This document shows positions 9,136-62,592 of a stretch of DNA of 64,000 bases, piece by piece (position 1 is the first letter of the stretch; every line of letters starts with the position of its first letter). Below the pieces are notes generated by a model. It did not search any database. It was not told the origin of the DNA and was given only the letters and a program-made list of their open reading frames with translations. The position numbers and the translations under genes are program-made. Source of the DNA: a virus. Taxonomy: Duplodnaviria > Heunggongvirae > Uroviricota > Caudoviricetes. The stretch spans positions 1-64,000 of IMG/VR virus record IMGVR_UViG_2936390555_000003, one strand, 5' to 3'.

Positions 9136-9333
9136 ATGTTCTATGAAAGCATGATAAAACTGAAAAAGAAGAACATCGAGGCCGTAATTAAAATCCCGTT
9201 TGATACCAGGGATGAAGCGTTGGTTGGGTTCAATAGGTTACTTGATATGCTTGATGAAAGCCACGATGATACCTTGAAGGTATTGAATAGCTTTGCTGGC
9301 AATGGTGTTAAGGAGGAGTCGCATGTTTTATGA
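9136..9333 (+). CDS. hypothetical protein (65 aa)
   Basis: RBS CTGAGGAGGAATTG before ATG 9136. Confidence 0.5.
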   Translation: MFYESMIKLKKKNIEAVIKIPFDTRDEALVGFNRLLDMLDESHDDTLKVLNSFAGNGVKEESHVL

Positions 9334-10100
9334 CAATGAAATCTCCATGGGTATAATGGAGAAGAAGTATTTACAGCCAGGGGAAACCCCAGAGCAGTGG
9401 CTGGACAGGGTGGTGTCCATATTCTCCCCTGATTTGCAGGATGATATAAGGTATGCCATTAGTCAGGCTGACTTCTTGCCAGCAGGGAGAACCTTGGCTG
9501 GCGCAGGACTCAAGGGAAAGCGTAAGATGAGTACGTCTAACTGCTATATTTGTCCTTCACCAAAGGATAACATCGAATCCATATTTGATACAGCGAAAAT
9601 GGTTGCTCGCATCAGTAGCTATGGTGGTGGCTGTGGGATAGCATTGGATAACTTGAGACCGAAGGATGCACTGGTAAACAATAGTGCAAGAACATCAACG
9701 GGTGCCGTGAGCTTCCTGAATCTCTTTGATACGACAGGCTCAATTATTGGCCAGGCTGGAAGACGTGCAGCTTTGATGGTTGGTTTACGCTGTGACCATC
9801 CTGACATTTATGAGTTCCTTCGTGTCAAGGAGAATAACGAAAAACTTGCTTCCATGAACATCAGTATTAAATTCACTAATGAATTTATGGAGGCGGTGCG
9901 TGACCATAAGAAATTCCATCTTCACTTTGAATCCGTGCATGAAAACATTGAGCGTGACATTGATGCCGCTGAATTTTTTGAGGAATTCTGCAAGGTCAAT
10001 GCTGACTGGGGAGACCCAGGGTGCATCTTCATCGACAGGGTAAGGAGCTACCACTTGCTCAGTGGTTATCCTGAGTATCAGATTGATATATCCAATCCGT
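9323..10100 (+). CDS. nrdJ: class II (adenosylcobalamin-type) ribonucleotide reductase NrdJ, exon 1
   Basis: RBS AAGGAGGAG before ATG 9323. RNR motifs SYGGGCGIALDNLRP and GQAGRRAALMVGL. Exon ends ...ISNP + T at 10100, where the listed ORF hits the first intron codon TAA. Confidence 0.8.
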
Positions 10101-10309
10101 AAAGTGTATGCGGCGTTGCATGGTAACATGCAAATGAAAATCCCCTCTGAATAACTTGGAAGCCCTAACGTAAAGCCGAGGGTGACAGGGAGCAAGGGTA
10201 ATGCCAGCTTGAGAGAAGTAAGCGAGGGGACATCCCATGTGGATGGTGCGGTACTCCAGACGACAAACACTGTTATACCAGGTGTGCTATGGAAACATAG
10301 TGTCGTAGG
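10101..10309 (+). ncRNA. ORF-less group I self-splicing intron interrupting nrdJ at the NPC(thiyl-Cys) codon
   Basis: Exon 1 ends ...AAUCCGU with U before the splice site. The internal guide GCGG (10110-10113) pairs with CCGU (G·U at the splice site). P2 hairpin TTGCATG-GTAA-CATGCAA. P3-like pairing CCCCTC(10143-48)/GAGGGG(10225-30). Terminal G at 10309. Splicing T|GT restores the Cys codon and the frame (NPCAEYYGIGGNSCNLGSINL). Confidence 0.6.
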
Positions 10310-11724
10310 GTGCAGAATATTATGGTATAGGTGGTAACAGCTGCAACCTTGGTTCCATCAATCTTTATAACATGATTGATGACAAGTTCACTCGCGAAGC
10401 GCATGTGAACTATGAACGCTTGGGAACTGTCGTAAACATTGCTGTTCAGGCACTCGATGAAATCCTTACTTATGGCTATGGTATGCAGCCATTAGATCTG
10501 AATCGCAAGGTCATTGATGACTGGCGCAGCATAGGACTTGGTATCTTCGGTCTTGCGGATGCACTGGTTGCTATGGGTATACGTTATGGCAGCAAGGAGT
10601 CAATTGAATTTGTCTCTGATGTCATGGAACACATCATGCTCTATGCCTTGGAAACATCATCAGACCTGGCTCATCACTATGGCTCATTCAGAAAGTATGA
10701 TTTCGAGAAGATTTGCGAGTCTCAGATAATCAAAGCTTTCCCTTACATGAGGGATAAAATAGAAATGGATGGGCTCCGTAATGGCTCACTGATTTCCATC
10801 GCTCCAACAGGCACTATTTCCCTGTTTGCCGGGCGGTTCACTGGTGGTGTGGAGCCTATGTATCAGGTGGCATACGAGAGAACCTCCCATTCCACTGAGG
10901 ACGAAGGAAAGACCTTCTTTGTCTATGCTCGTGGCGTGGAAGACCTCCTGAAATTCCATGGGATTGACCCTCAGAAAATCACGGTGGACGAGATTAAGGC
11001 ACGGTTCCCATTTGTTATTGAGTCTCATGAGGTGCCATGGAAAGAGCGTGTGGCTCTCCAGGGTGTAATGCAGGATTACGTTGACAACTCCATCAGCTCC
11101 ACGGTAAACCTGCCTAACAGTGCAACATGGGAAGATATTCGTGACATCTACATGTTTGCATGGGAGCAGGGGCTCAAGGGAATAACCGTGTTCCGTGATG
11201 GGTGCAAGCGTGGCAATATCCTTGGCGTATCTAAGGATGAGCCAGTTGAGTCAATGTATAACATGGTTGAACCGCTGAAGCGTGGCAGTACCTATCGCGT
11301 TGATGGCTCCACATTCAAACAGCGGACAGCCTGTGTTCCTTCCATGTATGTCACGGTGAACAAGTCAGACACAGGCGACCTCATGGAGGTATTCACTAAT
11401 GCCAGCGGTGGTTGTCAGGCCAACATTAATACCATTACTCGCCTGGTTTCCCTTTTACTACGCGCTGGTGTCAAGCGTGACATTGTAATCGAGGAGCTTC
11501 GTGAGAATCAGTGTCCTGCATGTCAGGCTCTTAGAAGGCAGGGAAAATCCCTTTCCCTGAGCTGCGGTAATGCCATTGCAGATGCCATGACAGCCATGCT
11601 GGACGATGAATCTACCGTGGAGCATGATGGCTACCTGGTATGCCCTGAGTGTGGCAAGCATACCCTTAGACCAGAGGGTAAATGCTTTACATGCAGTAAC
11701 TGTGGCTACAGCAAATGTGATTGA
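10310..11724 (+). CDS. nrdJ: NrdJ exon 2
   Basis: In-frame continuation CAEYYGIGGNSCNLGSINLYNM..., with the same C-x10-CNLGSINL spacing as NrdJ active-site loops. C-terminal zinc ribbon CPECGK...CFTCSNCGYSKC. Confidence 0.8.
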
Positions 11725-28201: not shown

Positions 28202-28708
28202 TGGTAAAGACCACCTTTCATTATATATAATTGTAAATGTGCTATCGCCCCTTGGCTTTTGCCTCAAGGCTTGCATATAAGGTATCATGAAATCCTATTT
28301 TCGCCTATGTATACATTAAAATATCGCTTTATAACCATAAAGCCAGGTATCAAGGATAGACCCCGGACCCCGTGCCACACAAGGGCTCCCAGGGTGCAAA
28401 AATTTTCACCAATGATAGCAAAAAAATTTATCTTCGCGCGGTATGACCCTCATATCCCGTGGCCACCAATTTTTCAAATGAAATCCCCCTCAAGCCCAGT
28501 AATATCAACGCTTCTCACTGTCATTCACCCACCGAAACACTATGTAATTCCCAGGCATCAAATGAAAAAACTCTGCTAACCCCAGTAATACCAAGGGGTG
28601 CAAGGCTCTGTACCAAAGCGAAACAATATTTTTATGGGACTAAAGTTTCATTTTTAAAAATTTGAAAATTTTTTTGGGAAACATGGAATATTATTGTGGG
28701 CTAAATAC

Positions 28709-29020
28709 ATTATATGTAGAACAGGTTTTTACGTTCTATCCTTTTCTCTTCTTTGTAAAGGAGCTGAGAAGGACATGGACTCATGAGGAAAACTTTGCGA
28801 ATCGTTAGTGTTGCATTTCCCAGTCTTTGACTTGCGACTCTTACTCATGTTGTTCATGGCTTTTTCAGAACTCGCCCATGAAGTACAGTGCAGCTTATGC
28901 TGTGAGATAGTAGTGGGAGCAACCCTATTAATCCGTCATTGGCATGGAGTGCTTCTTTAAAAGAGAAGAAAGTAGGGAATGAGGATACGACCGTCTGTGG
29001 GGGACTACAGGGGGTCAATG
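28709..29020 (+). ncRNA. candidate structured RNA / late-operon leader element, copy 1
   Basis: Shares with copy 2 (52813-53090) an ATTATATGTAGAAC box, a covarying closing helix (TTCTCTTCTTTG...AAAGAGAAGAAAG here; TTCTCTTTCTTTG...AAAGAGAAAGAAAG in copy 2), an exact 48-nt core (28871-28918) and a GGGGG-N5-GGGGG motif. Confidence 0.4.
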
Positions 29021-29500
29021 TTTAAACCATAGTTCTTATCATAGATATACATTGTATTACTATGATATATATGTATACTATGTATACAGTGTATTCGAGG
29101 GTAACTCATAACCTATGGTTCTTAACCATGGGACATCACCCCCTTGGGATAACGTTATTGTCCGATAGGACAATAAGTCACGAAGTGACTTTACCTTCTA
29201 TGGGATATATCGTACTAAGAATACGATAGTATTCCATGTAGCTCTATATGAACTATGGAGTTCCATAGAACATGAGTATATGATATACCATGAATAACTA
29301 TGACATACATGTATACTATGAATACCTTACTTACCTATAGATACTACATTGTATCTTTATGGAACTATATATTCTTTATAGTTCTATAGAAATGCAATGT
29401 ATATCATACATACAAATGTTTACAATTAATTACATTAAATTACAAACAATGTCATTAATTGTTTACATTGTTTACTATGTATTACATTGAATAACAATGT
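29021..29500. repeat. A+T-rich array of short palindromic/direct repeats (CATAG/CTATG, TTCTATAGAA, CTATGGAgTTCCATAG, TTACATTG)
   Basis: About 480 bp with dozens of CATAG-type motifs and several perfect palindromes. Directly upstream of the terS RBS. Confidence 0.6.
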
Positions 29501-29514
29501 AAAGGAGGTACATC

Positions 29515-30783: not shown

Positions 30784-30871
30784 GGAGCCATGGCAGAGTG
30801 GTTTATTGCAGCGGTCTCTAAAACCGATGATGTTCACGCATCCGTAGGTTCAAATCCTACTGGCTCCGCCA
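30784..30871 (+). tRNA. amber-suppressor tRNA, serine type: tRNA-Ser(CUA), class II with 16-nt variable arm
   Basis: Cloverleaf: acceptor GGAGCCA/UGGCUCC; U8; D-stem GCAG/UUGC with G18G19; anticodon stem CGGU/ACCG; loop CUCUAAA (anticodon CUA at 30818-30820); variable arm UGAUGUUCACGCAUCC (GAUG/CAUC stem); T-arm GUAGG-UUCAAAU-CCUAC; discriminator G73; CCA encoded. SerRS identity elements present (G1-C72, G2-C71, A3-U70, C11-G24, long arm, G73). Anticodon loop equals bacterial tRNA-Ser(CGA) with G35 changed to U. Confidence 0.8.
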
Positions 30872-31553: not shown

Positions 31554-32506
31554 ATGACTTGGTTACAACGATAGACGATAGAGAAGCCGTGACATCCAGC
31601 CGTGTCGTGGCAACAGCCTTTGAAAAAAGGCATGACAATGTTTTGCGAGACATAAGGGGTCTCCTCAAAATTGAGGATACCCAAGGAATGTTCTACAAGA
31701 CTACATATATCAATAAGCAGAATGGACAGAAGTACACGGAGTACCTCATGAACCGCGATGGGTTTGCCATACTGGTCATGGGGTTCACGGGAGCTAAAGC
31801 CCTTGAGTGGAAAATGAAATTCCTGAATCAGTTCAACGCCATGGAATCCGTCATCAGACAGCACGGTCTCGAAGGGAAGGTGCAGAAGTCTCTTGATGCC
31901 ATATCTGACCTGCGAAAGCAATTGAAGGACTCAGGCATACTGAGGGAGTACATAGCTCCCCATCATTTCTTTGACCACCTGGCAGCTCGATGGAAGGAAG
32001 CAACGCACCGTGAGCGCATAAGGGACTTCTATGATGATATTGGTTCTTACGCTGGCGTGAATGTTCCTTATAGCAACATGATAAACATTACAGTCAAGGA
32101 TTGGCTGTTGAATCATGTTGGACTCAGTACCATTGAGGAGCTTGTGATTGGGCTGGAAACACATACGATTACATATTCTAACCGAGGCAAGCCAGTGTCA
32201 AAGCATGGTGTCTTCGGGAACAAAACTGAATGGACAAAGATTGTTAATGAGTTCGGCGGTCGATGTGCTTATTGCGGAGCTGAGGGAACGCCATTGATTG
32301 CCGAACATATCATTTCACAATCCGCGCTGTCCAAAGACCACCCTGAGAAAGTTGACTTGATAGGAAACATTATTCCTGCCTGTCAGCAATGCAACCGATA
32401 GAAATACACGACCGACTTTGAGAAATGGTTCCCAAAGCAGCCATTCTACTCAAAGGCACGGCACAAGAAGATAATAGAACACATGGAGAAGTATGAGGTG
32501 AAGTGA
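31550..32506 (+). CDS. Rha-family regulatory domain fused to HNH endonuclease; contains 1 in-frame TAG (32399-32401)
   Basis: N-terminal Rha motif TSSRVVATAFEKRHDNVLRDIRGLL. C-terminal HNH motif CAYCGAEGTPLIAEHIISQ...NIIPACQQCNR. The frame continues through TAG for 34 more codons to TGA 32504-32506. HNH next to terL is typical. Confidence 0.6.
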
Positions 32507-32507
32507 A

Positions 32508-34130
32508 TTGGCAGAGAACATCATGAGAGAAATCTTTGGCAACAAGCTTCGCAGGGATGCAGAAGTCGGCTCCATGAAAGACAAGTGCGCCCATGACTTC
32601 AAGCTGTTCTGCGAGTATTATCTGGCGGATAGCTTTGGATAGCCCTGGAGCCACAAGTTCCATGACTGGCTGATTGACAAGCTGGTGAGCATAACCTTTG
32701 ACCATAGGGATGATGAAACGAGAACAGTGGTAGCATCGCCTCGTGGTCATGCAAAGTCAACACTCATATCCTTTGGGTATGTACTTTGGCTGATAGTGTA
32801 TAACTACAAGAAGTTCATCGTTATTGTCTCGGCTACTGGCACGGTATCAAAGCAGTTCCTACTGAATATCAGGACAGCCCTTGAGACAAACCAGCGATTG
32901 CGACAGGATTTCGGTGACCTAACCAGCGATGACCTATGGAATAACACGGAGCTTCTTACGCAGAACAAAGTGTTTGTCACTGGTCGTTCGGCAGGACAGC
33001 AGATGCGAGGACTGAACTTTAATGGAACACGACCGGACATCGTTATCCTTGATGACTTGGAAACTCCTGAGCAGGTGGCAAGTCCTGCGCAAACACGTGA
33101 CCTTGAGAAATGGTTTAACTCAGATGTTCTTCCTATGGGCAGCATCAGTGCTGACTTCATTTACATTGGCACAGTGCTTTCATATGAAAGCCTTTTGTAC
33201 CACATGCTGACCAATGCTGGCTACAGCTCATGGACACGCAAGAGGTTTCAGGCGGTAATTGAATTTTCCAGGAGCCCATTGTGGGACGAATGGGAAACCA
33301 TCATTACAGACCTGGAGCGTGGCGACCATGCGTATGACGATGCGGTGGCATTTTACAATGAGCACAAGGAAGAAATGCTTGAGGGCACGGAAGTCCTCTG
33401 GCCAGACCAGCGACCTGATATGTACAGGTATCTCATGGAACGCAGGATAGCCGATGAGGAAAGCTTTGCCAGCGAGTACATGAATGACCCACAGACCGAG
33501 AACACAAGAGTCTTTAAGACCAAGTGGCTTGAGGATAACTATTATGTCGATGCGCCTGACATTCGGGAGATGTGCATTGCCATTGACCCGGCGGTATCAG
33601 CGAAGCGCAAGAATGACTATAGTGCCATTGTTGCTGTGGGGCGTGGCATGGATAACTACTTCTATGTACTGGAAGCCGATGTACAGAAGCGCACCCCTGA
33701 TAAGATTATTGAAGATGCCAAGGAGATAATCGCTAGGTACTACAAGTACAAGCCTAGCATTGTCGTGGAGACCAATCAGATGCAAGCATTCTTTAGCAGT
33801 ACCTTGAAGCGAGATATGGTTAATGCTGGAATATACCTTGACTGGATAGAAGTCTATCGTAAGTCAGGGGACAGCAAGAGCAGTCGTATAGAGAGTCTGG
33901 TACCGCACATAAAGAATGGTTACATAAAATTCAAGGCAAGTCAGAAGATATTGCTTTCACAGCTAAGGAATTATCCAAAGGGACATGATGATGCTCCCGA
34001 CTGCTTGGAGTCAGCGTTGGCTCCGATGCTGAGTACAAACAAAACATCGTTTGGCTTCAGTAGTGCAGGGGCATCTCCGAAGCACGGTGGAACTTTTGAC
34101 TTCCTCAAGAAAGCGATAGGAATGAGGTGA
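32508..34130 (+). CDS. terL: terminase large subunit; 1 in-frame TAG (32640-32642)
   Basis: RBS GAGGTGA before TTG 32508 (alternative ATG 32523). N-terminal segment MREIFGNKLRRDAEV...YYLADSFG-TAG-PWSHKFHDWLIDKL is continuous with ORF 32685..34130. Walker A ASPRGHAKST, Walker B DIVILDDLE. Nuclease domain in the C-terminus. Confidence 0.85.
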
Positions 34131-41848: not shown

Positions 41849-42060
41849 AGGAAAAGACTGAATGGAGAAACCTATTTGCCTCCATTGTCCAGAACACTAG
41901 CATGACAATGGAGGATATAGGCAATCTCCGAATCAATCAGATGGAAGATTTATTGGAAGGTATGAATGAGAATGCGGAAGCATTGGAACGCGAGATGAAG
42001 GGCGAGGTAAAGCCACTGGAAGGCGATGCTGCCATTAGAAAACTTATGGGAGGGATGTAA
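41483..42060 (+). CDS. tail assembly chaperone G-T frameshift fusion product (-1 frameshift at 41831-41840)
   Basis: -1 frame reads ...KSDVKEKTEWRNLFASIVQNTSMTMEDIGNLRINQMEDLLEGMNENAEALEREMKGEVKPLEGDAAIRKLMGGM, ending just before the tape-measure ATG. Confidence 0.45.
41831..41840 (+). promoter_or_regulatory. programmed -1 ribosomal frameshift slippery site (A AAA AAA AAG)
   Basis: A9G run at the 3' end of the chaperone gene. The -1 frame is open for ~73 further codons (to TAA 42058-42060), encoding a plausible gpT-like extension. Confidence 0.5.
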
Positions 42061-42061
42061 T

Positions 42062-45000
42062 ATGGCCACAGAAAACGATAAGCCAAAACTTGGATTGGAT
42101 ATATCCATAAGCACAACGAGCGCATTTAACTAGGTTAGGCATCTGAAAGAAGAAATCCAGAAGCTCAAGAATTTAGCCGATAAAGGAATTGACTTCTCCG
42201 TAAACATTGGCAGTGTTATTAAGCAGGCGAACAGCGCACTCAAAGAGGCACGTAAATCTATTGATGACATCAAGAAGTCAGCAATGGAGGGTGGCAAACT
42301 CAAGCTTGAACTTTCAGAGACTGATATAGCAAAGATTAACCAGGGCATGACTGAGTTGCAGACTGCCATGACCAAGGCATCTACGCTGGGTATGGAGGCG
42401 TGGGCTAGAGTTGACCGCGGTATAACTAGGGCTCGCAAGAACCAGAGTGAATTTATGAGGGAAAGCTATCACACGAATTTCCAGAATTTCGCCGGTCAAT
42501 CTGAAGATCTCGTTCTGAAGACATAGAACGAAAATGTGAAGAATGCAATTGCCCATCAGATGAATAAGAAGTATTCTGAGTATGACTGGTCTGACCCGGC
42601 CAAGCTGGAAGAGGTGAGAAAAAAATTCTTTTAGCTTGTAGATTCATACAAAGATACTGCCGACCTCATGAATCCAGAGAGATTTGCAAGGTTTATTTCT
42701 GAGTATAGAGCTATAGTAGACCACGCACCTGCATCCGCGGATATAGGAGACTCCCTTAGAATATTAAAGGAGCGCAACATGGATAAAGTGTTCCAAAAGT
42801 ATTTCAAAGATACTCATATTGCAGGGATGGAAAACATTTTCAAACAGGTTGCTACGCTTGACGATAAGAACTTTGAGTCTATTAAACCGACAATAAAAGA
42901 GGCAATAGGTAATATACGTGAAGCAGGGGGTAACAGCTCTTTGTTCGCTCCACTGGCAAAGCAATACAAGGATAATCCTAGAATGCTTGATCTTTTACCA
43001 ATCTATCCTAATAAAATTATTGACTGGGACAAGATGTTATATGGCGAGGGCGCAACTAAGACCTCAGTAAATCTCGATGCACTGCATAAGGTAAGCGAGG
43101 CTTTGCGCCAGGCTATTATGGAAGTCGTTAAAAGCGTAGAGCAGATAAAGAACGCTGCTGCTACGACTGCTGTTTCAATGAATACGATAGCACCTTCATC
43201 GGCTTCTCCTGTACCGCCTGAGAAGAGCAATCTTGTAGTGCAGGTGAAGCAGGAGAACGATGAAATCCAGAAAGCCCTGAAGCAGCGTGAAGCTCTCTTG
43301 AAGCAGCTTAACGATATGAATAACCTTGTAGCTAAAAGGCCATACGAGCATCGCCTGGAAAAATTGGATAAACTGAATGCAACCCTGTCAACTAATGGCT
43401 ATGGCATACAGCTTCCAAGGTTCTATGCAAAAAGCGGTGACAAGGAAGCTACAAATGCAGCTTATGACAATTATCTCCGCGAGGCATCCGGTTACAATTC
43501 CATGCGCAAAGAGCTTACTTCCATGATGGAACGTGGTATCACGCCTACCAAGGAGCATTGGAATGAAATCAGGAATAACTATTTGTCCATGCTTGACTCC
43601 CTGAGGGAAAAGCGTTACAAGATTTCTCCGGTATCAGATGATTTTACTGGCGGAACCTATGAAAAGTTCCTTGCAAAAATGAGGGAGTTCCAGCAGACCG
43701 CAAAAGCAAATGGTATCGTACCTGTTACCGCTGATGCCCGTCAGGTCAACGAGAAAATTGCTGAGTTACGTAAAGCCTTGGCATCCCTGGAAGCATTTAG
43801 CATTAGGATTACAGCGAACACTGAGCCTATCATTAAGGCAGTTGACTCCGTGATTGCCAGATTGCAGTCTATGAAGGACGTGGCTATCACCGTAAATGCG
43901 AACACAAAGCCGTTCATAGAGGCGATAGATGCTTGCATGGCAAAGTGCAAAGAGCTCAAGCCAAATATAGAGTTCGATGCAGCAAAACTTAACACAGAGC
44001 TTGCAAAGATAAAAACTGTTCTCCCTATTGCTATTGACTTTGAGAAATATCGTGAGGAGCTTCAGAAAATCCAGAAGTACACCAATAGCTTACCACATAT
44101 GATACTCAAGGCTGGACTTGACACAAGCGAGTTCATTAAATCCGTTGAGGCTGCTAAAATTAAAGCCAAAGAAATAAAGGATATTCGTTTGAATATTGAT
44201 GCGAGCGGTGTTGAACCTGGCTATAACAAGTTCAAGGATTTCGTTGATTATGCATACAGGCACAATCCTATTGCAATTGGTGTTACAGTGAATGAAACTA
44301 GTCTCAGTGTTATTGACTTGTTGCTCAATAGGGTCCAGGCATTACAGTAGGCATCTAGGTTGCAGATTGATTTTAAGAAACTCTATGATGATATAAAGGT
44401 TCTTGAGCAGAACTGTCCTACCATTAAATTGCCTATCTCAATTGATAAAAATATGTTCAAGGAGCAGGTGGGTAAAATCGCTTCTCCAAAGATTTCCACT
44501 CAGCTCAAGATTGAACGACAGAAATTCCGTGATGAAATCAAAGATGTTGGCGAGAAACTTCCTAAGATAAAGGTGGGTATCGGAGTTGATGCAAAGGGGT
44601 TCCATGACGAAGTTAAGAACGTTGGCTCACAGCTTCCTACGGTAAAGGTTCCTGTTACAGTTGACTCGAAGTTCTTTAAGGACGAAACCGCACGCATACA
44701 GGAAATACTTGATACCATAAAACCCGTATCCATAAAGGTCAATGCTGACACACAGCAGTTCATTTCTACTATAAAGGAGTGCGTTGATGAGCTCCACAAG
44801 CTCAAGGACATAACCGTTACAGTAAAAGGTAAGAAGCCTAAAGAAAAAACAGCTGCTGTTACAGAGGATACTCCAAAGAAGGCTAAGGGGAAAGCCAAGA
44901 AGGAGATGGACTACGATGAGCTCCTTACTATGCTCAAGATAAATCAGTTTTCTGATGGTATATCGCAGAGTAAATCCACTGTAGGCGCAAGGCTCAAGAG

Positions 45001-48000
45001 CGTAAGGAACCTCCAGAGTGCAGCGATGCAAGGCGGATGGCAACCGAGCGCCGAGGATTTGGCATGGCTGGCAAATGAGCGCAATGCACTTGAACGGAAA
45101 AACGAAGCGGTCAAGCTGAACAGTACCAGACCTGGGACAAACCTTATTGACGAGTATATTCGCTTGAGAGAACAGGAGTCTAAAAGATTCTCTGAATAGC
45201 TCCGCAATCAGATGAACGAGCGTGTTAAGCAGGAAAACAAGATTACTGATGAGGAACTTGCTGCAACCAAAAGACAGCTTCGTAGAAATCTCAAGGAATG
45301 GCAAAAGAATAATACTGCAATTGCGAAGGCAAAAGAAGAAGCTCGTAAGAGAGAGTTAGCCAAGGAAGCTCAGGCTGCCAAAGAGCAGAAGGAATACAGC
45401 GACCGCACGGCAAAACTTCTTGTTCAGGAAAGATTCGCTCAAACAAAGGAACAGGAAAAGGCAGAGGAAAAAGCTCGCAAGCGTAGATTAGCTCAGGAAG
45501 CTCAGGCTACCAAAGAGCAGAAGGAGTACAGTGACCGCACGGCAAAGCTTATGACCCAGGAAACCAATAGGCTCCAGGCATTGAAGGATAAACTTGCAAA
45601 GCTTCAGAATGACATTACCATCTCCCAGCTTTCCGGCAAGAAGATTGCCATGGATTCCTGGCTGAGGAAGAGTGACAGGGAGGCCGAGCTTATCAATAGC
45701 ATCATGTCCATGGGTGGCACGGCAAGCGCGAAGTACAATGGCATCGCAGGATTCAAGGAATACGTTAAGCCTTGGAACCAGCAGGATAAACTCAAGACTG
45801 ACAATAAGGAATTGAAGGAAGCCCTTAAAACATACGAGCGTATCGAAGCCATCCTTGTACGCATCAGGAAAACAGGAATTATCCCTGATAATATCGACAA
45901 GTTGAAGCAGAAAGAATTGGAAGCAAGGTCAATCATTCAGAAGAGCTTTGGCGGAGCACTTGGTTCTCCTGCACAGCAAGCTGCCTTCAATGCAAATTAT
46001 CCGCAGGTATTGACACAGCAGAATATCGATGCTGCAAAGTCCGGCGCTGAGATAAGCAAGAGGCTCAAGGGTGAAATGCGGAGTGCCATGAGCGAGTTCA
46101 AGAGCCTCATAAAAGAGGTAAGGCGCGATGCGATAAATGGCACTGGTCGCTCTGAATACTACTTGGCAAACCGCAGTAGCAGGATTGCTGAGATACTCCA
46201 GGGAGTTGATAAGAATACCAGGAACGCTCTTTTGATGAGGTATGAGAATGATATTCATAGGGCATACGCAAACCCTGCTGACATTAACGCCAAGGCAATA
46301 GCCGAGGTAGAAAAGAGACTTGCAGAGCGTTGGCAGAAGTTTGATATGCTTGACAACGTCACTCCAAAGGCATATACAAATATGTATCAGTATCTCGTGA
46401 GAGCCGTAGAAAAAATTGGCTCCATGGGCGGCATGTACGATGGTCGCGTGCTGACCAAGACTCCGGAGGAGTACAAGGCAAGCTATGTGAGACCTTCGAC
46501 TGGTATAGATGAAGCTGCACGGAAGCAGCAGAATTTAAATGCTATTCAGGAAAGATACAACGCTGAACTTGAGAAGCAGAATGCCCTGATGACCTACGGC
46601 ACACTTCTTTCCCAGAAGCAGATTGATACTGCAATCAGGAAACTCGAAGCATTGCGCAAGAAATACGAGGAACTGGGCGGTGAGCGTAGCAAGCTTCAGC
46701 TGTCTGACATTGAAGCTGCTGGAACTACTGCTCGCGATGTGAACTCTGCAATCGTTGACCGCAATGTGAAAGCATGGAGCACGGATAATGTGGCAACCGT
46801 GTCCCAGGGCTTATCGCATCTCAGCGGAATGCAACAGGCCCAGTACAATGCATGGCTCCAGGACCCAAGCAAGAATAACCTGAAGAACCTTACGCTTACC
46901 ACAGCAGAGATGAGGAAGCTTAACAGGGAGGCCCAGCGTTATCAGCGTGTTGTCAACGACACCAATAAGACGATGGAAAGCCTTAATAATAAGATTCACA
47001 ATCATCTTTCCTGGATGACAAGCGGACTGTTCATTGGAACTATCTTTGCTATTCCTGCTGAGGTAATGAATCAGTGGAAAGAACTGGAGTATAGCCTCGC
47101 TGGTATCAGGCAGGTTATCACGGAAATCGAAAAGAACGAGGGAGGCAATGCGTTTAAAGAAGCATTTGATCTTATGGAGATTGCCAAAAAGAACGGCGTT
47201 GGCGTTGAGGAGACCATGGATGCAGCCAAGTCTATCGGTCGTATGTATGGCAAGAACCCTATCGACTCAAACGGTGTCGAAGAAAAGGGCGTTGGTATTC
47301 GCAATACAAACCTGATTACTTCACAGGCAGCGAAGATGGCAGTAGCCGATGCCTTCGATATGGAGAATGCATTCAAGGGATTGGAGGCAGCATTATCCCA
47401 GTGGAACTTGCAGACAGAGGACACAAACCAGCTTCTCATCAATACCAATCGTATACTGGAAGCATGGACTATCACAGCTCATGCCGGTGCTGCATCGGCT
47501 CAGGACATTGGGCAGGCAATTGAAATTGCTGGTACTGCCGCTGCAAATGCAGGCGTGTCATTCGAGTTCTTCAATGCCCTTGTTGCTACAGGTGTACGGC
47601 AGACTGCACGAAGCGGTAATGAAATCGGTCAGGCAATCAAGTCCATGATGGTTTCCATGCAGTCAAATAAATCCCTGAAAGCCTTGAAGGAATGGGGAAT
47701 AGAGTTGTATAATGTAAGCGAGGATGGCACGAAATCCATGCGCTCCATGGAGGACATTATTCTCGATGTATCCCTGCTCATGAACAATACGGCAAAAGAT
47801 ACCAGAGGACTGCTGACTACGCTGTCTGGTGGTAAATACCAGTATTCAAAAGTATCAGCAATGCTGGGCAATTATAAAGAATTGCTCCGCATGATGAAAC
47901 TCATTAACAACCCTAATGATAATCTCATGGAAGGCAAGCCTGGCTTATTCATCGACCAGCAGGTTGAAGTGCAGATGGACACCTTACAGAGAAAAATCAA

Positions 48001-51000
48001 TTCCATCAAAGCGGATGCACAAAACATCATATTTGACATTGGTGTAAACGCAGGTGGCTTGGATGCCCTCAAGTGGCTCGCTGACAAGATAGATGACATC
48101 ATTGTAGGTACACAGAAAATAGGGGATAAATGGGGAGAGACCGGTACTAAGATAGCTGGGGTAACAGTAGCAGTCTTGGCTTTCTATAAGGCTGTTGAAA
48201 AAATATAGGTAGCCATGAAGACATACGAGATGTACAAGGCTGCCTACAATGCTACTGGCAACACGTAGTTTTTCCAGTCACTTCTTGACAATAGAAAGAA
48301 GGAAATAGAGCTCAAGGCTTCTCAGAAAGTGGCGAGTGCCATGAGCGACAATGCTATTGTAGGTGGGAGAGCCGCTAGTACCGAAGCTAATACAATAGCA
48401 ACCAATGCTAATACAGCTGCGAGAACTGCTAATACCGCAAGCAATACTGCGAACACGGCAGCTACAGCGGAAAATACCGTGGCCAGCGCAGCGAATACAG
48501 CTAGGAGGGCAGCGAACACAGCTGCTACCGAAGCTAATACTGTAGCAACAGTTGCTAATGTCACGGCTCAAAGGTCTGCCGCTGGTGCAGCAACGGGAGC
48601 AGCCACTTCAATGGGTGTAATGGCTACCGCTGGCATGACTGCTCGTGCTGGCCTTGCTGCCCTGGGCGGCCCGCTTGGTGTTGCAATTACAGCTTTGACA
48701 ATCCTTATTCCTCTTGGAATAGAATATGCATCAACTCTGGGCGAAGAAGCAAACGCTGCAAAGAAAGCTGCGGATGCACTTGCCGAGAAGAATAATGCAG
48801 TAGACCAGGAAATTTCCAAGGCTAACCAGCGTGAGCACGCAGCTATAAGCCTGGCAAACGCTTACAATAATCTAAGTGTGCAGATAGCTAATGGCACCCT
48901 GCGCACCGAGGAGGCTCAGAAGGCCGAAGCAGAAATGGCTGACCTCAAGCATACGCTGATTGGTATAGTTGGTCAGGAAGCAGTGGCAATAGACGAAAAC
49001 GGCAGGATTAACATTGACACCATCAAGCGAATGAGTAAAGCTGAGAAACAGGCAGCTATTGATAAGCTCAGGGCTGACCGTGATAAGCTTGAGTCAGAAA
49101 AGGCTGAGACTCAGAATACTATTGAGCTGACAAAACAGCGCATTGAAGCTATCAAATCTGAGATTGAAGCCATGAGGGAGCGTGCTGGTGCCAGCAGTAC
49201 ATGGGATAAGATAGCTGCCTCCGTATACCGTGGAGCAGCTTGGTTTGCACATGCTACAGGTCAGACCACGGACGAAGAGTATGAAACCAATTTGGAAAAA
49301 GCAAACCTCCGTGAACAGGGCGTTCCCGCCGAAAAACTCGCTGAACTTGATATGGCAACCAAAAGGGTATCTGAGTTACAAGGTAATCTTGATAAGCTTA
49401 ACCCAAACATTGATACTCTGAATAATGCAATAGGAAACCTTACATCCCTTGCAGAAGAGGGAAGTCAGACGTACAACCATGGCGAAATAGAAGAGCCGGA
49501 GGAAAAAGCCTCCGCTGGTAAATCCGCTGGCTCAGACTCTCGCCAGAACAACATGCAGGACCCTCGCATCCTTGCGCATGTCAGTCGTATTGATGAAATC
49601 GCAAGCAATACCAGCAACCAGGTATCTCTGCTTAATGACATTAAGTCCCAGCAGGGTAACTCCAAGGAGCTTTCCATACAGACCTTCGATACATACCAGA
49701 GGGGCATCGACGAGCTCAAGGCTGAACGCCAGAGGCTCAACGATTACCTGTATACCAAGAACGTAAATGCGTTCAATGGTCAGTTCTCTGTAACCATTAG
49801 CGATACCGCTGCATCCGATGCGGTGGTCGAGGCTGCCATGCCGTATCTTGAGAAGACCATGGAAAATGGTACCGAGGGCTGTGTCGAGGCTGTTACCAAG
49901 ATTGGCGAAAAAACCAGCAGCTTCCTTGCGCAAGAACTCAAGAACGGTGTAGTCCGTGTGCCTGTTCTTGTATCCGATGCTGAGAACGCTGGCATACCTG
50001 TAGTTCCTTACGATGCCAATAATGTAGGTGCCGGGGATGTTATCGTGTACGACAATAATGACCATGTGGTTATGGCTGATGGCAAGGGAGGGTATGTAGG
50101 CAATAGCTCCGGACTGAATCGTGTTGTACATAGACCTGACTACACAGCTATGGGCGGTCAGGTTCCTACCCAGATTATCAAGACTGGCACCATTGCTGGC
50201 GAAAGAAAAGTCCAGTGGAGCGACAGTCTTGCCAATTATGCAATTGATAATGATGGAACCATGCTTGATGCTGGTACCTGGGATAAGGCAGGGCTCTCTG
50301 GGCAAATTAAACTCATTGAGCAGGCATTGCAGGTCAAGGGCCAGGAGAATAACGAGTTCCTCATGCAGTTCTCCAAGGTGCTACTTGTCGACCTCAAGGC
50401 TCTCAATGATGCCGATGCTAAAACCAGAAGCCTTATTACCCAACAGGCTAATCAGTGGTTCACCGACATGAACGCTGAGGTATCACAGGCAGGAACCACG
50501 GCATCCCAGAAGGGGAACCGTGAGCTGTTCATGCTTGGCTCAGGAGCTACCGAATATGACAAGGCTCGCATCGAGCTCCAGAAGAACACGGCTGAACTCA
50601 GTGCTATGAGTGAAATCGTGGAACGTAAGCAGACACAGGATCTGAAGAATACCGTTGCTGGCAAAGCGTTCCTTGACAGCTACCTGCAGAAGCAGATGAC
50701 TCAGCGCGACCTCCAGTTTAAAACCGTTGTGGCCATGTATAACGATGCAAAAGCAACCACTGACCATAATGTCAAGATGCGTGATTATGGGAACAATAAT
50801 ACCGATGACCGCATGGGTGTCAAGCGAGCCACGGATACCCTGGCAGATGCGATGGTACAGGTTGAGCTTCAGCGGAAACAGTTGGAGCTTGCGAGAGATA
50901 CGGACGAAAAGAATTACCAGGAAATCCGCAAGATGGAAGAGTCTTACAAGGATGCCCTGGAAGCACTTCGTACCGCACAGAGACAGTACAACCAGCAGGT

Positions 51001-52742: not shown

Positions 52743-52771
52743 TTGAAGCCGTACATAGCGTATGGTATAAT
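52743..52771 (+). promoter_or_regulatory. sigma70-like promoter with extended -10: -35 TTGAAG (52743-48), 17-nt spacer, TGgTATAAT (52763-71)
   Basis: Near-consensus elements. About 40 nt upstream of structured element copy 2. Confidence 0.45.
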
Positions 52772-52812
52772 ATACTCGAAGGTCGAATGGAATATTTTTG
52801 AGCTTCAAATGT

Positions 52813-53090
52813 ATTATATGTAGAACCCCTTTTTTCTCTTTCTTTGCTAAAGGAGATAGGGTGTAGCGTGGTCAAAGAGGACACCATGGCAACATGGTAG
52901 CATCGCATAAGGATGTGACTCCTGCGTGCTCACTGGATGGCAACGTTAATTCCTAATCTCGCCCATGAAGTACAGTGCAGCTTATGCTGTGAGATAGTAG
53001 TGGGAACCTGGCTTACCTTTCTCTAAAAAAGAGAAAGAAAGTAACGCCAGGGGAGAACTCTGCCCATGAGGGGGTTTGGGGGAGTAACCA
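52813..53090 (+). ncRNA. candidate structured RNA / late-operon leader element, copy 2
   Basis: See copy 1. Exact 48-nt core at 52958-53005. Covarying closing helix 52831-52847 / 53018-53041. GGGGG-N-GGGGG motif at 53071-53083. Confidence 0.4.
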
Positions 53091-53520
53091 TGGATTTCAA
53101 TGATAAACACAGTTGTCCTAAGATACTACATAGTATCCTTGGTATATCATAGTTATACATAGTATATCAGTATATCATGGATTACATGTATACCATAGGA
53201 TAACATAGTTCTCCTTGGAACTCTATATCGTTTATACATAGAAATTCAAGGTATTCTATAGAGTTCTATAGATATTCATGTATACCATGGATAAATATAT
53301 ATTCTATAGAATAAACCTTCCTTCGGAAGGTTAATCCACTGACGTGGATTGACGTATAACAAGGCAAGGTATCTTGCATGGTATTCACTTAGATATTCCA
53401 TGGAATACTAAGTACCATAGAATCCATGTACCATAGATACCATAGTTATACATAGATACCATAGTATAACATATATATCATAGTAATCAACAAGACAAGT
53501 GATACCCTCGCTTGTCTTAT
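53091..53520. repeat. A+T-rich array of short CATAG/CTATG-type palindromic repeats (second copy of the array type at 29021-29500)
   Basis: More than 20 CATAG motifs. Palindromes TTCTATAGA, TTCCATGGAA. Embedded perfect hairpin AACCTTCC-TTCG-GAAGGTT (about 53310-53328). Confidence 0.6.
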
Positions 53521-54035: not shown

Positions 54036-54395
54036 ATGGAAACACTAAAGTTAATCCCAAGAGGTGATGTGACCAAGGCATACGACTATGGGAACAATGT
54101 TGTATAGTTTGAGAATGGCTTGCAACAGGTTCAGAGGAAATATGTGACTCCTCGCCTTACCTTGTCCATCCACGTCGAGGGTGACAAAGATATGAAGGAA
54201 TACCTGGAGGAATTCATCAATGCCAGGCATGGCAACTATGAAGCTTTCTATTGGACATACGAAGGGCACACCGATGTTTACCGTTTTGGCGAGAGTTCCA
54301 TACAGTTCACGGAAATACGTGGCTACGAGGGCGAGGGGACTGTGGGCTACAAGGCTGACATAAGCCTCCAGAGATGCAAGGAGCGTGAGTATTAA
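54036..54395 (+). CDS. hypothetical tail protein (119 aa); 1 in-frame TAG (54105-54107)
   Basis: RBS AGTAAGGAGGCATGAAAAAT before ATG 54036. In frame with ORF 54120..54395. Confidence 0.5.
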
Positions 54396-55189: not shown

Positions 55190-55193
55190 TTGG

Positions 55194-62327: not shown

Positions 62328-62464
62328 TCGGCTAAAAGAGTAAAACGGGACGGACGAATGGACGACGGTACTTCTGGTCGGCGGTTCGTCAAGACGATTA
62401 AAAACCGTCGCGTGAGCGACGGGCGATATATATTTTTTCTAGGTTCATAAGTCGTTCCTGCAAT

Positions 62465-62592
62465 GGCTTGCTTCGTCGGTGTCTAGTCGGTGGCAATTGG
62501 AGCAATGGTTCGTATTGCAGTTCCCGTGCAGCGAATTGTAACAATTTCTCGTCTAACCGCAATGCCACTATCAGTGGGCGTGCAGTGTCGGA
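62465..62592 (+). repeat. DGR template repeat (TR)
   Basis: Non-coding copy of the VR between the target gene and the RT. Adenines at all variable positions. Confidence 0.85.

What the first reader, a model, noticed from the sequence alone, without database searches (positions are those of the whole stretch)
28709..29020. Duplicated ~280-nt structured element with an exact 48-nt core and a covarying closing helix (copy 1), forming the leader of the terS late operon
Seen in sequence: the two copies (28709-29020 and 52813-53090) share an ATTATATGTAGAAC box.

They also share a closing helix that differs by compensatory changes. Copy 1 is TTCTCTTCTTTG...AAAGAGAAGAAAG. Copy 2 is TTCTCTTTCTTTG...AAAGAGAAAGAAAG.

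The 48-nt core CTCGCCCATGAAGTACAGTGCAGCTTATGCTGTGAGATAGTAGTGGGA is 100% identical. It contains a CAGC-UUAU-GCUG hairpin flanked by CCCA/UGGG. A GGGGG-N5-GGGGG motif lies near the 3' end. The two copies otherwise diverge internally, about 120 nt on each side of the core.

The core contains a potential mini-ORF, MKYSAAYAVR-TAG-TAG-WE..., with a double amber. It has no RBS.

Each copy sits at the 5' end of a late transcription unit (before terS, and before the NlpC/P60 / tail-tip genes). In copy 2 it follows a near-consensus promoter.

I cannot assign it to a known RNA family. Candidate roles are a processive antitermination or RNAP-modifying RNA, a leader sensing suppressor-tRNA availability through the tandem UAGs, or a ribozyme/riboregulator.
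Basis: partly seen in the sequence, partly recalled or inferred. Interest (0 to 1): 0.7.

Follow-up and report, generated by a model that had tools for sequence, protein, structure and literature searches.

The report
Phage leader RNA with triple-helix signature
The duplicated element is real and belongs to an undescribed family of structured leader RNAs in phages of Selenomonadaceae (gut and rumen bacteria), whose evolution points to a long three-stranded RNA helix of a kind so far known from eukaryotic and herpesvirus RNAs such as MALAT1, and in bacteria only as short riboswitch forms.

Summary
There is an exact 48-nt repeat (28871-28918 / 52958-53005), and each copy follows the same promoter-like box. 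No Rfam family matches.

Relatives show a modular 5' leader domain of about 130-340 nt in temperate phages of Selenomonadaceae (Mitsuokella, Anaerovibrio).

The family's one universal feature is not the 48-mer. It is three tracts on one strand:
- Y1, a 5' pyrimidine tract.
- Y2, a second pyrimidine tract.
- R, a purine tract.

In all 10 distinct variants Y1 is the perfect parallel complement of R over 13-20 nt. The antiparallel "closing helix" always keeps at least one C·A mismatch. Y2 is the Watson-Crick partner of R, and all three tracts change together. This is the signature and the strand order of a U•A-U / C+•G-C major-groove triple helix, as in MALAT1/PAN ENE+A, with 6-16 canonical triples predicted.

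The 48-mer is a lineage-specific hairpin. Its 18-nt tip is optional and was probably copied between the two copies. The double-amber mini-ORF is refuted.

Function is inferred only. My best guess is a nuclease-resistant or regulatory 5' cap on the long leaders of two predicted structural-gene operons. The triple helix has not been tested experimentally.

The parts
28683..28722 (+). Copy 1 promoter-like box. It has a weak -35-like TGGAAT (28684-28689) and a -10-like CATTAT (28708-28713). The predicted start is about 28720.
   Evidence: The box is shared with copy 2. It recurs in every relative and several times per phage, also in places without the element. Hexamer assignment and start site are inferred from sequence.
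28717..28738 (+). Copy 1 5'-terminal hairpin, UAGAAC-N10-GUUCUA.
   Evidence: Fold. Analogous but unrelated 5' hairpins occupy this position in L034, L138 and L156.
28742..28754 (+). Copy 1 Y1, the pyrimidine tract TTTTCTCTTCTTT, proposed Hoogsteen (third) strand.
   Evidence: Perfect parallel complement of R at 28959-28971.
28755..28951 (+). Copy 1 variable insert, a multi-helix domain. Its conserved blocks include GCAUUUCCCAGUC..UUGACUUGCGA and CUUAC(U/C)CAU.
   Evidence: Alignment A5 and RNAalifold show several helices with compensatory changes.
28871..28918 (+). Copy 1 '48-nt core', a hairpin. The stem is CCCA/UGGG (28875-28878 / 28914-28917). The internal loop carries GAA opposite AGUA (sarcin-ricin / loop E-like). 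The 18-nt tip hairpin (28887-28904) is optional.
   Evidence: Exact repeat. The stem changes CCCA/UGGG to CUCA/UGAG in L156/L158. The tip is absent in L013, L034, L138 and L156. The motif assignment is by eye.
28952..28958 (+). Copy 1 Y2, CTTCTTT, the Watson-Crick partner of R. It forms a hairpin with loop AAA.
28959..28972 (+). Copy 1 R, the purine tract AAAAGAGAAGAAAG.
28976..29016 (+). Copy 1 conserved GGAAUGAGG, followed by a hairpin with a G-rich loop. The stem is 28989-28998 / 29007-29016 and the loop GGGGGACU is 28999-29006.
   Evidence: The stem covaries (UGU/ACA to UUG/CAA) in L156/L158. This region matches the G-run start of leaders that lack the domain.
52743..52771 (+). Copy 2 additional near-consensus sigma-70 promoter, TTGAAG-17-TG-TATAAT.
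52787..52826 (+). Copy 2 promoter-like box. The -10-like TATTAT is at 52812-52817 and the predicted start is about 52824.
52830..52845 (+). Copy 2 Y1, TTTTTTCTCTTTCTTT, proposed Hoogsteen strand. It begins about 6 nt after the predicted start.
   Evidence: Perfect parallel complement of 53025-53040.
52958..53005 (+). Copy 2 core hairpin, identical to copy 1.
   Evidence: In the 98-99% sister strain this copy lacks the 18-nt tip.
53017..53024 (+). Copy 2 Y2, CTTTCTCT, the Watson-Crick partner of AGAGAAAG (53030-53037).
   Evidence: Perfect 8-bp hairpin extended by CUGGCUUAC/GUAACGCCAG, -18.1 kcal/mol. Eight canonical triples are predicted.
53025..53041 (+). Copy 2 R, the purine tract AAAAAAGAGAAAGAAAG.
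53068..53084 (+). Copy 2 G-run segment, GAGGGGGTTTGGGGGAG.
29020..29514 (.). Copy 1 downstream AT-rich array of degenerate, roughly 10.5-bp phased repeats (RWACWATRG). It contains two adjacent stable hairpins (29156-29189) and ends at the TerS-position gene.
   Evidence: k-mer enrichment and spacing peaks at 10-11, 19-22 and 30-33. It belongs to the same leader but not to the folded domain. Its role is unknown.
53090..53518 (.). Copy 2 downstream AT-rich phased-repeat array. It contains the hairpin pair at 53314-53350 and a terminator-like hairpin plus T-run at 53492-53518.

Best explanation
Each copy is the 5' domain of a long untranslated leader, about 300 nt from the predicted start to the G-loop hairpin. 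The leader is transcribed rightwards from a phage-specific sigma-70-type promoter, before the TerS-position gene (copy 1) and before the distal tail genes (copy 2).

The domain belongs to an undescribed, modular family of structured RNAs in temperate siphophages of Selenomonadaceae. Its defining core is three tracts on one strand, in the order 5'-Y1 ... insert ... Y2-loop-R-3'. R (A/G) pairs by Watson-Crick with Y2 as a local hairpin. Y1 (U/C) lies parallel to R, so it can occupy the major groove as a Hoogsteen strand giving U•A-U and C+•G-C triples. That is 6-8 canonical triples in the two window copies and 15-16 in the minimal relatives. The strand order matches the MALAT1/PAN ENE+A triple helix.

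The insert, which corresponds to the ENE upper stem-loop, is variable (87-218 nt). In this lineage it carries the '48-nt core' hairpin.

Shown:
- The family exists.
- It has strand-specific helices with compensatory changes.
- Y1 is always the perfect parallel complement of R.
- Y1, Y2 and R covary together.

Inferred:
- The triplex actually forms in RNA.
- What it does. My preferred reading is a compact, rigid 5' cap that buries the transcript's 5' end and purine tract. It would protect the long AU-rich leader, and hence the downstream structural-gene mRNA, from 5'-end-dependent decay (RNase J/E/Y, RppH). It may also switch with the alternative antiparallel Y1-R duplex.
For: Distribution of the Y1/R pair:
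- A scan for purine tracts that have a non-reversed complement upstream finds exactly the two window copies.
- The same scan finds one site in each relative that carries the domain: L002, L003, L005-L009, L034, L138, L156-159, L162, L163, L167 and L213.
- In 1.53 Mb of unrelated viral loci, both strands, it finds only one low-complexity mirror repeat.

Parallel versus antiparallel:
- There are ten distinct tract sequences. All are 100% parallel-complementary over 13-20 nt.
- The best antiparallel register always has 1-3 C·A mismatches.
- Given composition, the chance of a perfect parallel match is 1/286 to 1/27132 per variant.

Concerted changes between close relatives:
- L034 versus L138: CT4CTC to CTCT3C, with the matching change in R.
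- L006 versus L009: two substitutions in each tract, in parallel register.

Three-strand covariation:
- L002 versus L003 differ by a 1-nt indel in the same run of Y1, R and Y2b.
- w1 versus w2 differ as T2/T3, A2/A3 and CUUC/CUUUC.

Other support:
- With Y1 removed, R pairs with Y2 in the minimum-energy fold of nearly all variants.
- The Y2-loop-R hairpin is as stable as, or more stable than, the Y1:R duplex in 6 of 7 variants.
- 6-16 canonical triples per variant are predicted.
- Invariant G·U pairs and better + strand energies support + strand RNA.
- All instances are co-oriented with the downstream genes and follow the promoter box.
- Y1 starts about 6 nt from the predicted start in w2, L002 and L003. 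Elsewhere a 5' hairpin precedes it.
Against: - There is no experimental or transcript evidence. Promoter, start site and RNA ends are predictions.
- Nearest-neighbour folding and RNAalifold prefer an ordinary antiparallel Y1-R closing helix, which is 93.6% paired on alignment A5.
- The Watson-Crick partner Y2 covers only part of R in w1 (7 bp), w2 (8 bp) and the L005-L009 group. The parallel match is longer than the duplex it should dock on.
- C+•G-C triples need cytosine protonation. The L005-L009 group has CC/CCC runs, which are unfavourable at neutral pH.
- The domain is dispensable. Related phages L154, L210 and L212 have the same promoter, G-runs and array without it.
- Only about 10 variants from one phage clade are available, so phylogenetic independence is limited.
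- The proposed stabiliser function rests on position alone.
Confidence: 0.55

Rival explanations
1. It is a conventional multi-helix leader RNA with no triplex. Y1 and R form the ordinary antiparallel closing helix. The domain then acts like the HK022 put RNAs, as a cis-acting, promoter-proximal RNA that makes RNA polymerase resistant to pausing and termination across the long leader and operon.
For: - The minimum-energy and consensus folds use this helix, and 93.6% of its cells pair on alignment A5.
- There are two copies per genome, each just after a promoter that drives a long operon.
- The copy 2 leader contains a terminator-like hairpin at 53492-53518 that must be read through to reach the tail genes.
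- The untranslated leaders, 300-1000 nt long, would otherwise be exposed to Rho.
Against: - The antiparallel register has at least one C·A mismatch in all 10 variants, located exactly where the tracts vary. The parallel register is perfect.
- Any parallel-complementary pair automatically aligns two of three C/G positions antiparallel, so the apparent covariation of the closing helix is expected as a by-product.
- The only modules conserved between copy 1 and copy 2 at high identity (the core hairpin) are missing from other members.
- There is no put-like two-hairpin unit and no Rfam hit.
- Antitermination as a function is compatible with the triplex structure. Only the structural half of this rival is disfavoured.
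Confidence: 0.2
2. The parallel Y1/R relationship works through DNA. In one version the nascent 5' pyrimidine RNA (Y1) binds the downstream R·Y duplex as an RNA•DNA-DNA triplex. In another it clamps an R-loop formed by the purine-rich RNA. Either would anchor or prime at a transcription-activated origin or packaging site, made of promoter + purine tract/G-runs + AT-rich phased repeats. This would resemble T7/T4 origins, ColE1 RNA II or mitochondrial CSBII.
For: - Full-length perfect complementarity over 13-20 nt is what a triplex-forming strand needs on a DNA duplex, and it exceeds the RNA Y2-R duplex in several variants.
- The downstream arrays have roughly 10.5-bp helical phasing, typical of DNA-level protein-binding sites.
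- G-clusters follow R.
- The phage has a T7-like replication module.
- Copy 1 lies in the divergent region next to the TerS-position gene and an HNH/TerL cluster, where cos/pac sites usually lie.
Against: - Y2 is on the same strand and covaries with R and Y1, including matched indels. A DNA-target model does not need this.
- G·U pairs and many compensatory helices in the insert show selection on a folded single strand.
- The arrays and G-runs exist without Y1/R in L154, L210 and L212, so whatever the arrays do does not require the tracts.
- Two such 'origins' 24 kb apart, both pointing into structural genes, would be unusual.
Confidence: 0.12
3. It is a translational attenuator or sensor of amber suppression. 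A leader mini-ORF carrying UAG codons reports suppressor-tRNA availability and remodels the structure.
For: - The phage recodes TAG. It has a tRNA-CUA at 30784-30871 and in-frame TAGs in the TerL and tail genes.
- The core contains AUG...UAG UAG.
- L002/L003 have GGAG-N4-AUG UCA UAG CUA UAG ... ending in Y2a (read by eye).
Against: - The core AUG has no ribosome-binding site and lies inside a stem.
- The frame is broken by a 1-nt deletion in L001.
- The frame is also broken by loss of the 16-18-nt tip in L013, L034, L138 and L156.
- The peptides are not conserved.
- No ORF position, length or UAG placement is shared across w1, w2, L003, L034 and L006.
Confidence: 0.03
4. It is a ligand- or condition-responsive riboswitch-like domain. 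Triple-helix formation would depend on a metabolite, Mg2+ or pH, as in the SAM-II/preQ1-II pseudoknots but on a larger scale, and would gate downstream expression.
For: - The w1-type insert has highly conserved, non-helical blocks.
- Two mutually exclusive pairings for Y1, Y2 and R exist: the antiparallel duplex plus R0-Y2, or the Y2-R hairpin plus the Hoogsteen Y1.
- C+•G-C triples are intrinsically pH-sensitive.
Against: - The inserts are not conserved between subfamilies (87 nt in L003, unrelated sequence in L005-L009), so there is no common aptamer.
- No ribosome-binding site, start codon or canonical terminator is adjacent to R.
- There is no Rfam match.
Confidence: 0.08

Closest known systems
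MALAT1 / MENbeta / KSHV PAN ENE+A triple-helix RNA stability elements
   Same: - The strand order and polarity match: 5' U-rich Hoogsteen strand, intervening stem-loop(s), U-rich Watson-Crick strand, short linker, genomically encoded A-rich tract.
- U•A-U triples are interrupted by C+•G-C.
- The element is cis-acting and sits in a viral or non-coding context.
[quoted passage not shown] PMC7583470 Table 1 lists 9 U•A-U + 1 C+•G-C for MALAT1.
   Different: - The element sits at the 5' end of a bacterial-virus transcript, not at a 3' end. No 3'-end processing signal such as a tRNA-like structure follows R.
- The tracts contain 3-6 C/G positions.
- The predicted length reaches 15-16 triples.
- The 'upper stem-loop' is an 87-218-nt multi-helix insert.
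- There is no sequence or Rfam similarity.
- The function is untested.
HK022 putL/putR processive-antitermination RNAs
   Same: - Two copies per phage genome.
- Each lies promoter-proximal in a long operon, is cis-acting, and needs no ORF.
- put also contains a small triplex (PMC9378689).
   Different: - put is about 70 nt with two stem-loops, and its triplex is a short minor-groove one.
- There is no pyrimidine/purine tract architecture and no sequence similarity.
- Antitermination was not tested here.
Riboswitch pseudoknots with major-groove triples (SAM-II, SAM-V, preQ1-II/III)
   Same: They are bacterial 5'-leader RNAs in which a U-rich strand lies in the major groove of an A-rich helix.
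   Different: - They are compact H-type pseudoknots with about 2 canonical U•A-U triples plus ligand-mediated triples, and they sequester a ribosome-binding site (PMC7583470).
- Here there are 13-20-nt tracts, no adjacent start codon and no common aptamer.
Bacterial and phage 5' mRNA stabilisers (5'-terminal stem-loops such as ompA; the polypurine 5' stabiliser of Bacillus phage SP82) and viral exonuclease-resistant RNAs. These are cited from general knowledge and were not looked up here.
   Same: - A structured or purine-rich element at the extreme 5' end of a long transcript.
- The 5' nucleotides are buried in structure in every variant.
   Different: - The known stabilisers are simple hairpins or ribosome-bound Shine-Dalgarno-like sequences.
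- None uses a three-strand arrangement.
- Resistance to RNase J/E has not been shown here.

Membership tests
ENE / ENE+A triple-helix stability element (PAN, MALAT1, MENbeta, TWIFB1) | Two U-rich strands separated by a stem-loop, plus an A-rich tract that is Watson-Crick to the 3' U-rich strand and Hoogsteen (parallel) to the 5' U-rich strand. | tested here: met
   The order Y1 - insert - Y2 - loop - R is found in all members. Parallel complementarity of Y1 to R is 100% in 10 of 10 variants. Y2 is the partner of R in the minimum-energy fold. The three tracts covary. This is sequence evidence only.
ENE / ENE+A triple-helix stability element (PAN, MALAT1, MENbeta, TWIFB1) | The A-rich tract is the 3' end of the RNA (a poly(A) tail, or a blunt end made by RNase P), and the helix protects that 3' end. 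| tested here: not met
   R is followed by 300-1000 nt of leader and by genes. No tRNA-like structure follows R and no canonical terminator was found in the copy 1 leader. Processing right after R cannot be excluded without RNA data.
ENE / ENE+A triple-helix stability element (PAN, MALAT1, MENbeta, TWIFB1) | Match to a curated covariance model. | tested here: not met
   No Rfam 15 family reaches its gathering score or E<0.05 on either copy or on L003, L006, L138 or L156.
ENE / ENE+A triple-helix stability element (PAN, MALAT1, MENbeta, TWIFB1) | Physical formation of major-groove base triples. | not testable with these tools
   This needs melting/CD, N7-deaza or DMS-N7 probing, or a solved structure.
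HK022 put-type processive antitermination RNA | A unit of about 70 nt with two stem-loops, downstream of an early promoter, that renders RNA polymerase termination-resistant in cis. | tested here: inconclusive
   The promoter-proximal position and two copies per genome are met. The two-hairpin architecture is not seen. The activity is not testable here.
Riboswitch H-type pseudoknot with ligand-bound triple helix (SAM-II / preQ1-II) | A compact pseudoknot whose triple helix includes the ligand and the ribosome-binding site of the adjacent gene. | tested here: not met
   The next gene starts more than 300 nt downstream. The inserts are not conserved between subfamilies. There are no Rfam hits.
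Leader-peptide attenuator | A conserved short ORF with a ribosome-binding site, whose translation remodels the leader. | tested here: not met
   There is no ribosome-binding site. The frame and the UAG positions are not conserved.

The most novel reading that the evidence does not exclude
This would be the first long major-groove RNA triple helix of ENE+A topology found in a bacterial virus. The minimal members (L002/L003) predict 15-16 consecutive canonical U•A-U / C+•G-C triples, more than the 10 in MALAT1. The helix would sit at the 5' rather than the 3' end of an RNA. There it could act as a nuclease- or helicase-resistant cap, or as a pH/Mg-sensitive duplex-triplex switch on the phage's structural-gene operons.
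Probability: 0.5. Interest if true: 0.85.

Novelty: new variant of a known kind. Interest (0 to 1): 0.75.

Why it matters
- **Where long RNA triple helices are known.** Long, genomically encoded triple helices are known as RNA-stability devices of eukaryotic lncRNAs, herpesviruses and transposons. The bacterial examples catalogued in a 2020 review are short, ligand-bound riboswitch pseudoknots (PMC7583470). Four literature searches found no phage case.
- **What a phage family would add.** Ten naturally covarying three-strand variants would extend the structural principle to prokaryotic viruses. They would supply a ready-made mutational series for biophysics, including a 126-nt minimal form.
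- **A search method.** Non-reversed complementarity between pyrimidine and purine tracts is a simple genome-scan signature. Standard RNA-folding and covariation tools cannot see it, and here they misassign it as an ordinary helix.
- **An experimental system exists.** One member lies in a prophage of a cultured strain, Mitsuokella multacida DSM 20544, so the proposal can be tested directly.

Tried and rejected
Searches that found nothing useful:
- Rfam at gathering and E-value thresholds, on both copies and on four relatives, gave only tRNAs and chance miRNA-like hits.
- blastn of copy 1 against 50,697 GenBank phages found no match.
- The exact 48-mer is not in IMG/VR.
- One gapped pattern was wasted because its gap range was too narrow.
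- The promoter-box pattern also hit two AT-rich jumbo contigs by chance (L012, L014).
- The patterns GGGGGAYTACAGGGGG and GGAAGTCGGGCTATT gave mostly chance hits. They were useful only as a 1.5-Mb negative control.

Ideas rejected:
- TAG-as-sense translation of the elements and arrays gives no conserved ORF.
- The core mini-ORF, the AUGAGG after R and the GGAG-AUG after Y1 have no conserved frame or peptide.
- A single-subunit (T7-like) RNA polymerase promoter was considered because the boxes end in TATAG. It was set aside because the box fits a sigma-70 -10 (YATTAT) with a weak -35, and no phage RNA polymerase gene was seen in the window. About 12 kb of the genome was not examined.
- A TRAP-like (G/U)AG repeat site in the arrays does not fit, because the spacing is 10-11 nt rather than 5-6.

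Limits on diversity:
- A second (tail-side) copy was not found in other phages. L208 has none within 8 kb and L207 is too short.
- More distant relatives (TerL 41-68% identical: L010, L140, L141, L210-L212, L214) lack the domain, so no further diversity could be added.
Full report
**Observation.**
- The 48-mer is an exact two-copy repeat at 28871-28918 and 52958-53005.
- ATTATATGTAGAAC is exact at 28709 and 52813, with no other site at up to 2 mismatches. It is the 3' part of a 40-nt shared box at 28683-28722 and 52787-52826.
- The + strand folds better than shuffles (z = -3.4 and -2.8) and much better than the - strand.
- Minor corrections: the G-runs are spaced by 6 and 3 nt, not 5. The core is not centred. 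Each element is only the first third of a 0.8-1.3-kb gene-free leader.

**Context.** The window is a temperate siphophage.
- It carries integrases, a T7-like replication module, TerL, portal and tail genes, and a diversity-generating retroelement.
- Relatives are prophages or phages of Selenomonadaceae: Mitsuokella multacida DSM 20544 and an Anaerovibrio MAG.
- The phage reads TAG as sense in its structural genes. It has a tRNA-CUA at 30784-30871, and in-frame TAGs in TerL and the tail genes.
- Copy 1 lies in the divergent region before the 214-aa HTH protein that occupies the TerS position. Copy 2 lies between tail genes, behind an extra consensus sigma-70 promoter.
- The shared box fits a sigma-70 -10 (YATTAT) with a weak -35. 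It recurs several times per phage, and some copies stand directly before genes. So it is a phage promoter and not part of the folded element. This is inferred from sequence.

**The family.** Fetching loci around TerL and TerS homologues and around DNA patterns gave members in about 25 loci, which reduce to 10 distinct versions.
- Three subfamilies share no insert sequence:
  - w1-like: w1, L034, L138, L156-159, and more distantly w2.
  - A minimal form: L002/L003, 126 nt from Y1 to R.
  - The Mitsuokella type: L005-L009, L167, L213.
- Related phages L154, L210 and L212 have the same promoter followed directly by G-runs and the AT-rich array, with no domain. The G-run hairpin after R in w1 matches the start of those simple leaders. 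The domain is therefore an optional 5' insertion.
- No Rfam family matches any member. blastn of copy 1 against GenBank phages found nothing.

**The key result.** The only feature common to all members is three homopyrimidine or homopurine tracts on the + strand: Y1, then 87-218 nt later Y2, a 3-15-nt loop, and R.
- Y1 is not the reverse complement of R. It is the straight, parallel complement: T4CTCT2CT3 / A4GAGA2GA3 in copy 1, T6CTCT3CT3 / A6GAGA3GA3 in copy 2, and eight other patterns elsewhere.
- All 10 variants match 100% over 13-20 nt in parallel register. The best antiparallel register always leaves 1-3 C·A mismatches.
- The tracts are not mirror-symmetric (self-mirror identity 0.58-0.90), so this is not a trivial consequence of symmetry.
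- A parallel-complementary pair automatically aligns two of its three C/G positions antiparallel.
- The same scan over 1.53 Mb of unrelated viral DNA, both strands, gives only one low-complexity mirror repeat.
- Close relatives differ by concerted changes in both tracts: L034 versus L138 and L006 versus L009.
- Copying cannot produce a non-reversed complement, and no rotation relates the two duplex sites. Selection on parallel base-base contacts is the natural explanation.

**The third strand.** With Y1 removed, R pairs with the pyrimidine segment(s) just upstream in the minimum-energy fold of nearly every variant.
- This hairpin is at least as stable as a Y1:R duplex in 6 of 7 cases.
- Y2 covaries with the other two tracts. 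L002 and L003 differ by one nucleotide in the same run of Y1 (T5/T4), R (A5/A4) and Y2b (U5/U4). Copies 2 and 1 differ as T3/T2, A3/A2 and CUUUC/CUUC.
- All three tracts lie on one strand. Helices elsewhere contain invariant G·U pairs that would be A·C on the other strand. The folding molecule is therefore most likely the + strand RNA.
- The topology closes neatly. Y2 runs antiparallel to R through a short loop. Y1 runs parallel to R, and its 3' end meets the 5' end of Y2 through the insert. This is the ENE+A arrangement of MALAT1/PAN (PMC4824109, PMC7583470).
- Combining the parallel register with the predicted Y2 pairing gives this many canonical U•A-U / C+•G-C triples:

| Variant | Canonical triples |
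|---|---|
| w1 (copy 1) | 6 |
| w2 (copy 2) | 8 |
| L138 | 8 |
| L156 | 10 |
| L034 | 11 |
| L005, L006 | 11 |
| L009 | 13 |
| L003 | 15 |
| L002 | 16 |

**Other structure.** On the six-sequence w1-type alignment, 94% of cells pair versus 45-51% when partners are slid. Eighteen pairs change on both sides, versus 1-4.
- The '48-nt core' is a hairpin whose stem covaries (CCCA/UGGG to CUCA/UGAG).
- Its conserved internal loop places GAA opposite AGUA, which looks like a sarcin-ricin / loop E motif. I assigned this by eye and did not test it.
- Its 18-nt tip is optional. It is replaced by UU or CU in L034, L138 and L156-159, and also in copy 2 of a 98-99% identical sister strain.
- So the 100% identity of the window's two cores combines strong constraint on the flanks with a probable recent copy-1-to-copy-2 conversion of the tip.
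- After R come a conserved GGAAUGAGG and a hairpin with a G-rich loop whose stem covaries.

**What is refuted.**
- The mini-ORF with tandem ambers has no ribosome-binding site and lies in a stem. It is frameshifted in L001 and is out of frame wherever the tip is missing.
- No other leader ORF is conserved.

**Mechanism (inferred).** Y1 begins about 6 nt after the predicted start in w2, L002 and L003. Elsewhere it is preceded by a 5'-terminal hairpin. In every member the transcript's 5' end is therefore buried in structure.
- I propose that the domain is a rigid 5' cap for a long, AU-rich, untranslated leader. It would protect that leader from 5'-end-dependent decay. It could possibly toggle between the triplex and the alternative antiparallel duplex.
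- I rate an RNA triplex that actually forms at about 0.6, and the stabiliser function at about 0.3.

**Rivals.**
- An ordinary closing helix with a put-like antitermination role. The structural part is disfavoured. The functional part stays open, given the terminator-like hairpin at 53492-53518.
- A DNA-level role, as an RNA•DNA-DNA triplex or a clamped R-loop at a transcription-activated origin or packaging site. The roughly 10.5-bp phased repeat arrays, the G-clusters and the T7-like replication genes suggest it. The covarying Y2 and the fact that the arrays occur without the tracts argue against it.
- A condition-sensing switch.
- A leader-peptide sensor, which is essentially excluded.

**Novelty.** The structural principle is known, but I found no phage or bacterial example of a long ENE-type triple helix.
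- A 2020 review lists only short riboswitch triples for bacteria.
- Four full-text searches found none. The HK022 put RNA has only a short minor-groove triplex.
- The element fails the ENE criterion of a 3'-terminal A-tract and matches no curated model. I file it as a new variant of a known kind rather than a member.

**Limits.**
- Everything rests on comparative sequence analysis of one phage clade.
- Y2 covers only part of R in several members.
- The CC/CCC runs in one subfamily are awkward for a pyrimidine-motif triplex.
- There are no transcript data.

Noticed in passing
30784-30871; 32502-34130; 42011-52204; 54389-55189; 55089-59006: TAG appears to be read as sense in the structural genes. 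An 88-nt tRNA with anticodon CUA is encoded in the operon downstream of copy 1. With TAG as sense, four same-frame tail ORFs join into one frame with 7 in-frame TAGs. The tail-assembly and J-like genes are split by TAGs. TerL homologues are 540-556 aa, against the 481-aa standard-code ORF here.
   Followed up: partly
29020-29514 and 53090-53490; also L003:7500-7810, L006:4260-4807, L154:1395-1790: The AT-rich leader regions are arrays of degenerate repeats (RWACWATRG, e.g. GATACTATAGA / AATACATTGA). Spacing peaks at 10-11, 19-22 and 30-33 nt, which is helical phasing. The arrays are present in all relatives, including those that lack the triple-helix domain. They look like phased protein-binding sites (TerS/cos-pac, iterons or a regulator). 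Their role is unknown.
   Followed up: partly
29156-29189; 53314-53350; L003:~7642-7678; L006:~4311-4338: Inside every array there is a pair of directly adjacent, very stable small hairpins with UUCG, GNRA or GAA loops. The stem sequences differ completely between phages, but the pair and its position are conserved.
   Followed up: no
61482-63390: A diversity-generating retroelement. It has an Mtd-like target protein (61482-62327), a 148-nt VR/TR repeat pair at 86% identity (62164-62311 / 62454-62601), and a reverse transcriptase (62677-63390, running on).
   Followed up: partly
28683-28722, 52787-52826; L003:11501, L005:5353, L006:5912: A phage-specific promoter-like box, ACATTATATRTRRA, whose upstream half is group-specific: TGGAATATT in some phages and CCGAACAATTACCCCC in others. 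In the second group AATTACCCC / GGGGTAATT form a 9-bp inverted repeat around the -10. The box occurs two or more times per phage.
   Followed up: partly
52743-52771 and 53492-53518: A consensus extended -10 sigma-70 promoter lies 40 nt upstream of the copy 2 box. An 11-bp terminator-like hairpin with a T-run lies about 450 nt into the copy 2 leader. Copy 2 could therefore also be a separate non-coding RNA of about 700 nt.
   Followed up: no
9293-10102 and 10372-11724: The ribonucleotide reductase large subunit is split into two ORFs separated by about 270 nt. One in-frame TAG extends the second ORF to 10222. This could be recoding, an intein or intron, or a pseudogene.
   Followed up: no
L156:3472-4590; L157:3980-4846: In some relatives extra genes sit between the leader array and terS. 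L156 has an IS605-type TnpB/OrfB and L157 has a D12 methyltransferase. This shows the domain and array can be separated from terS by 2-3 kb.
   Followed up: no
L210:3794-6838; L212:5162-7571: More distant relatives have gene-free regions of 2.4-3 kb upstream of terS. One promoter box there is followed directly by GGGGGTAGGGGGTCAAAGG and the repeats. These non-coding stretches are unusually large for a phage.
   Followed up: no
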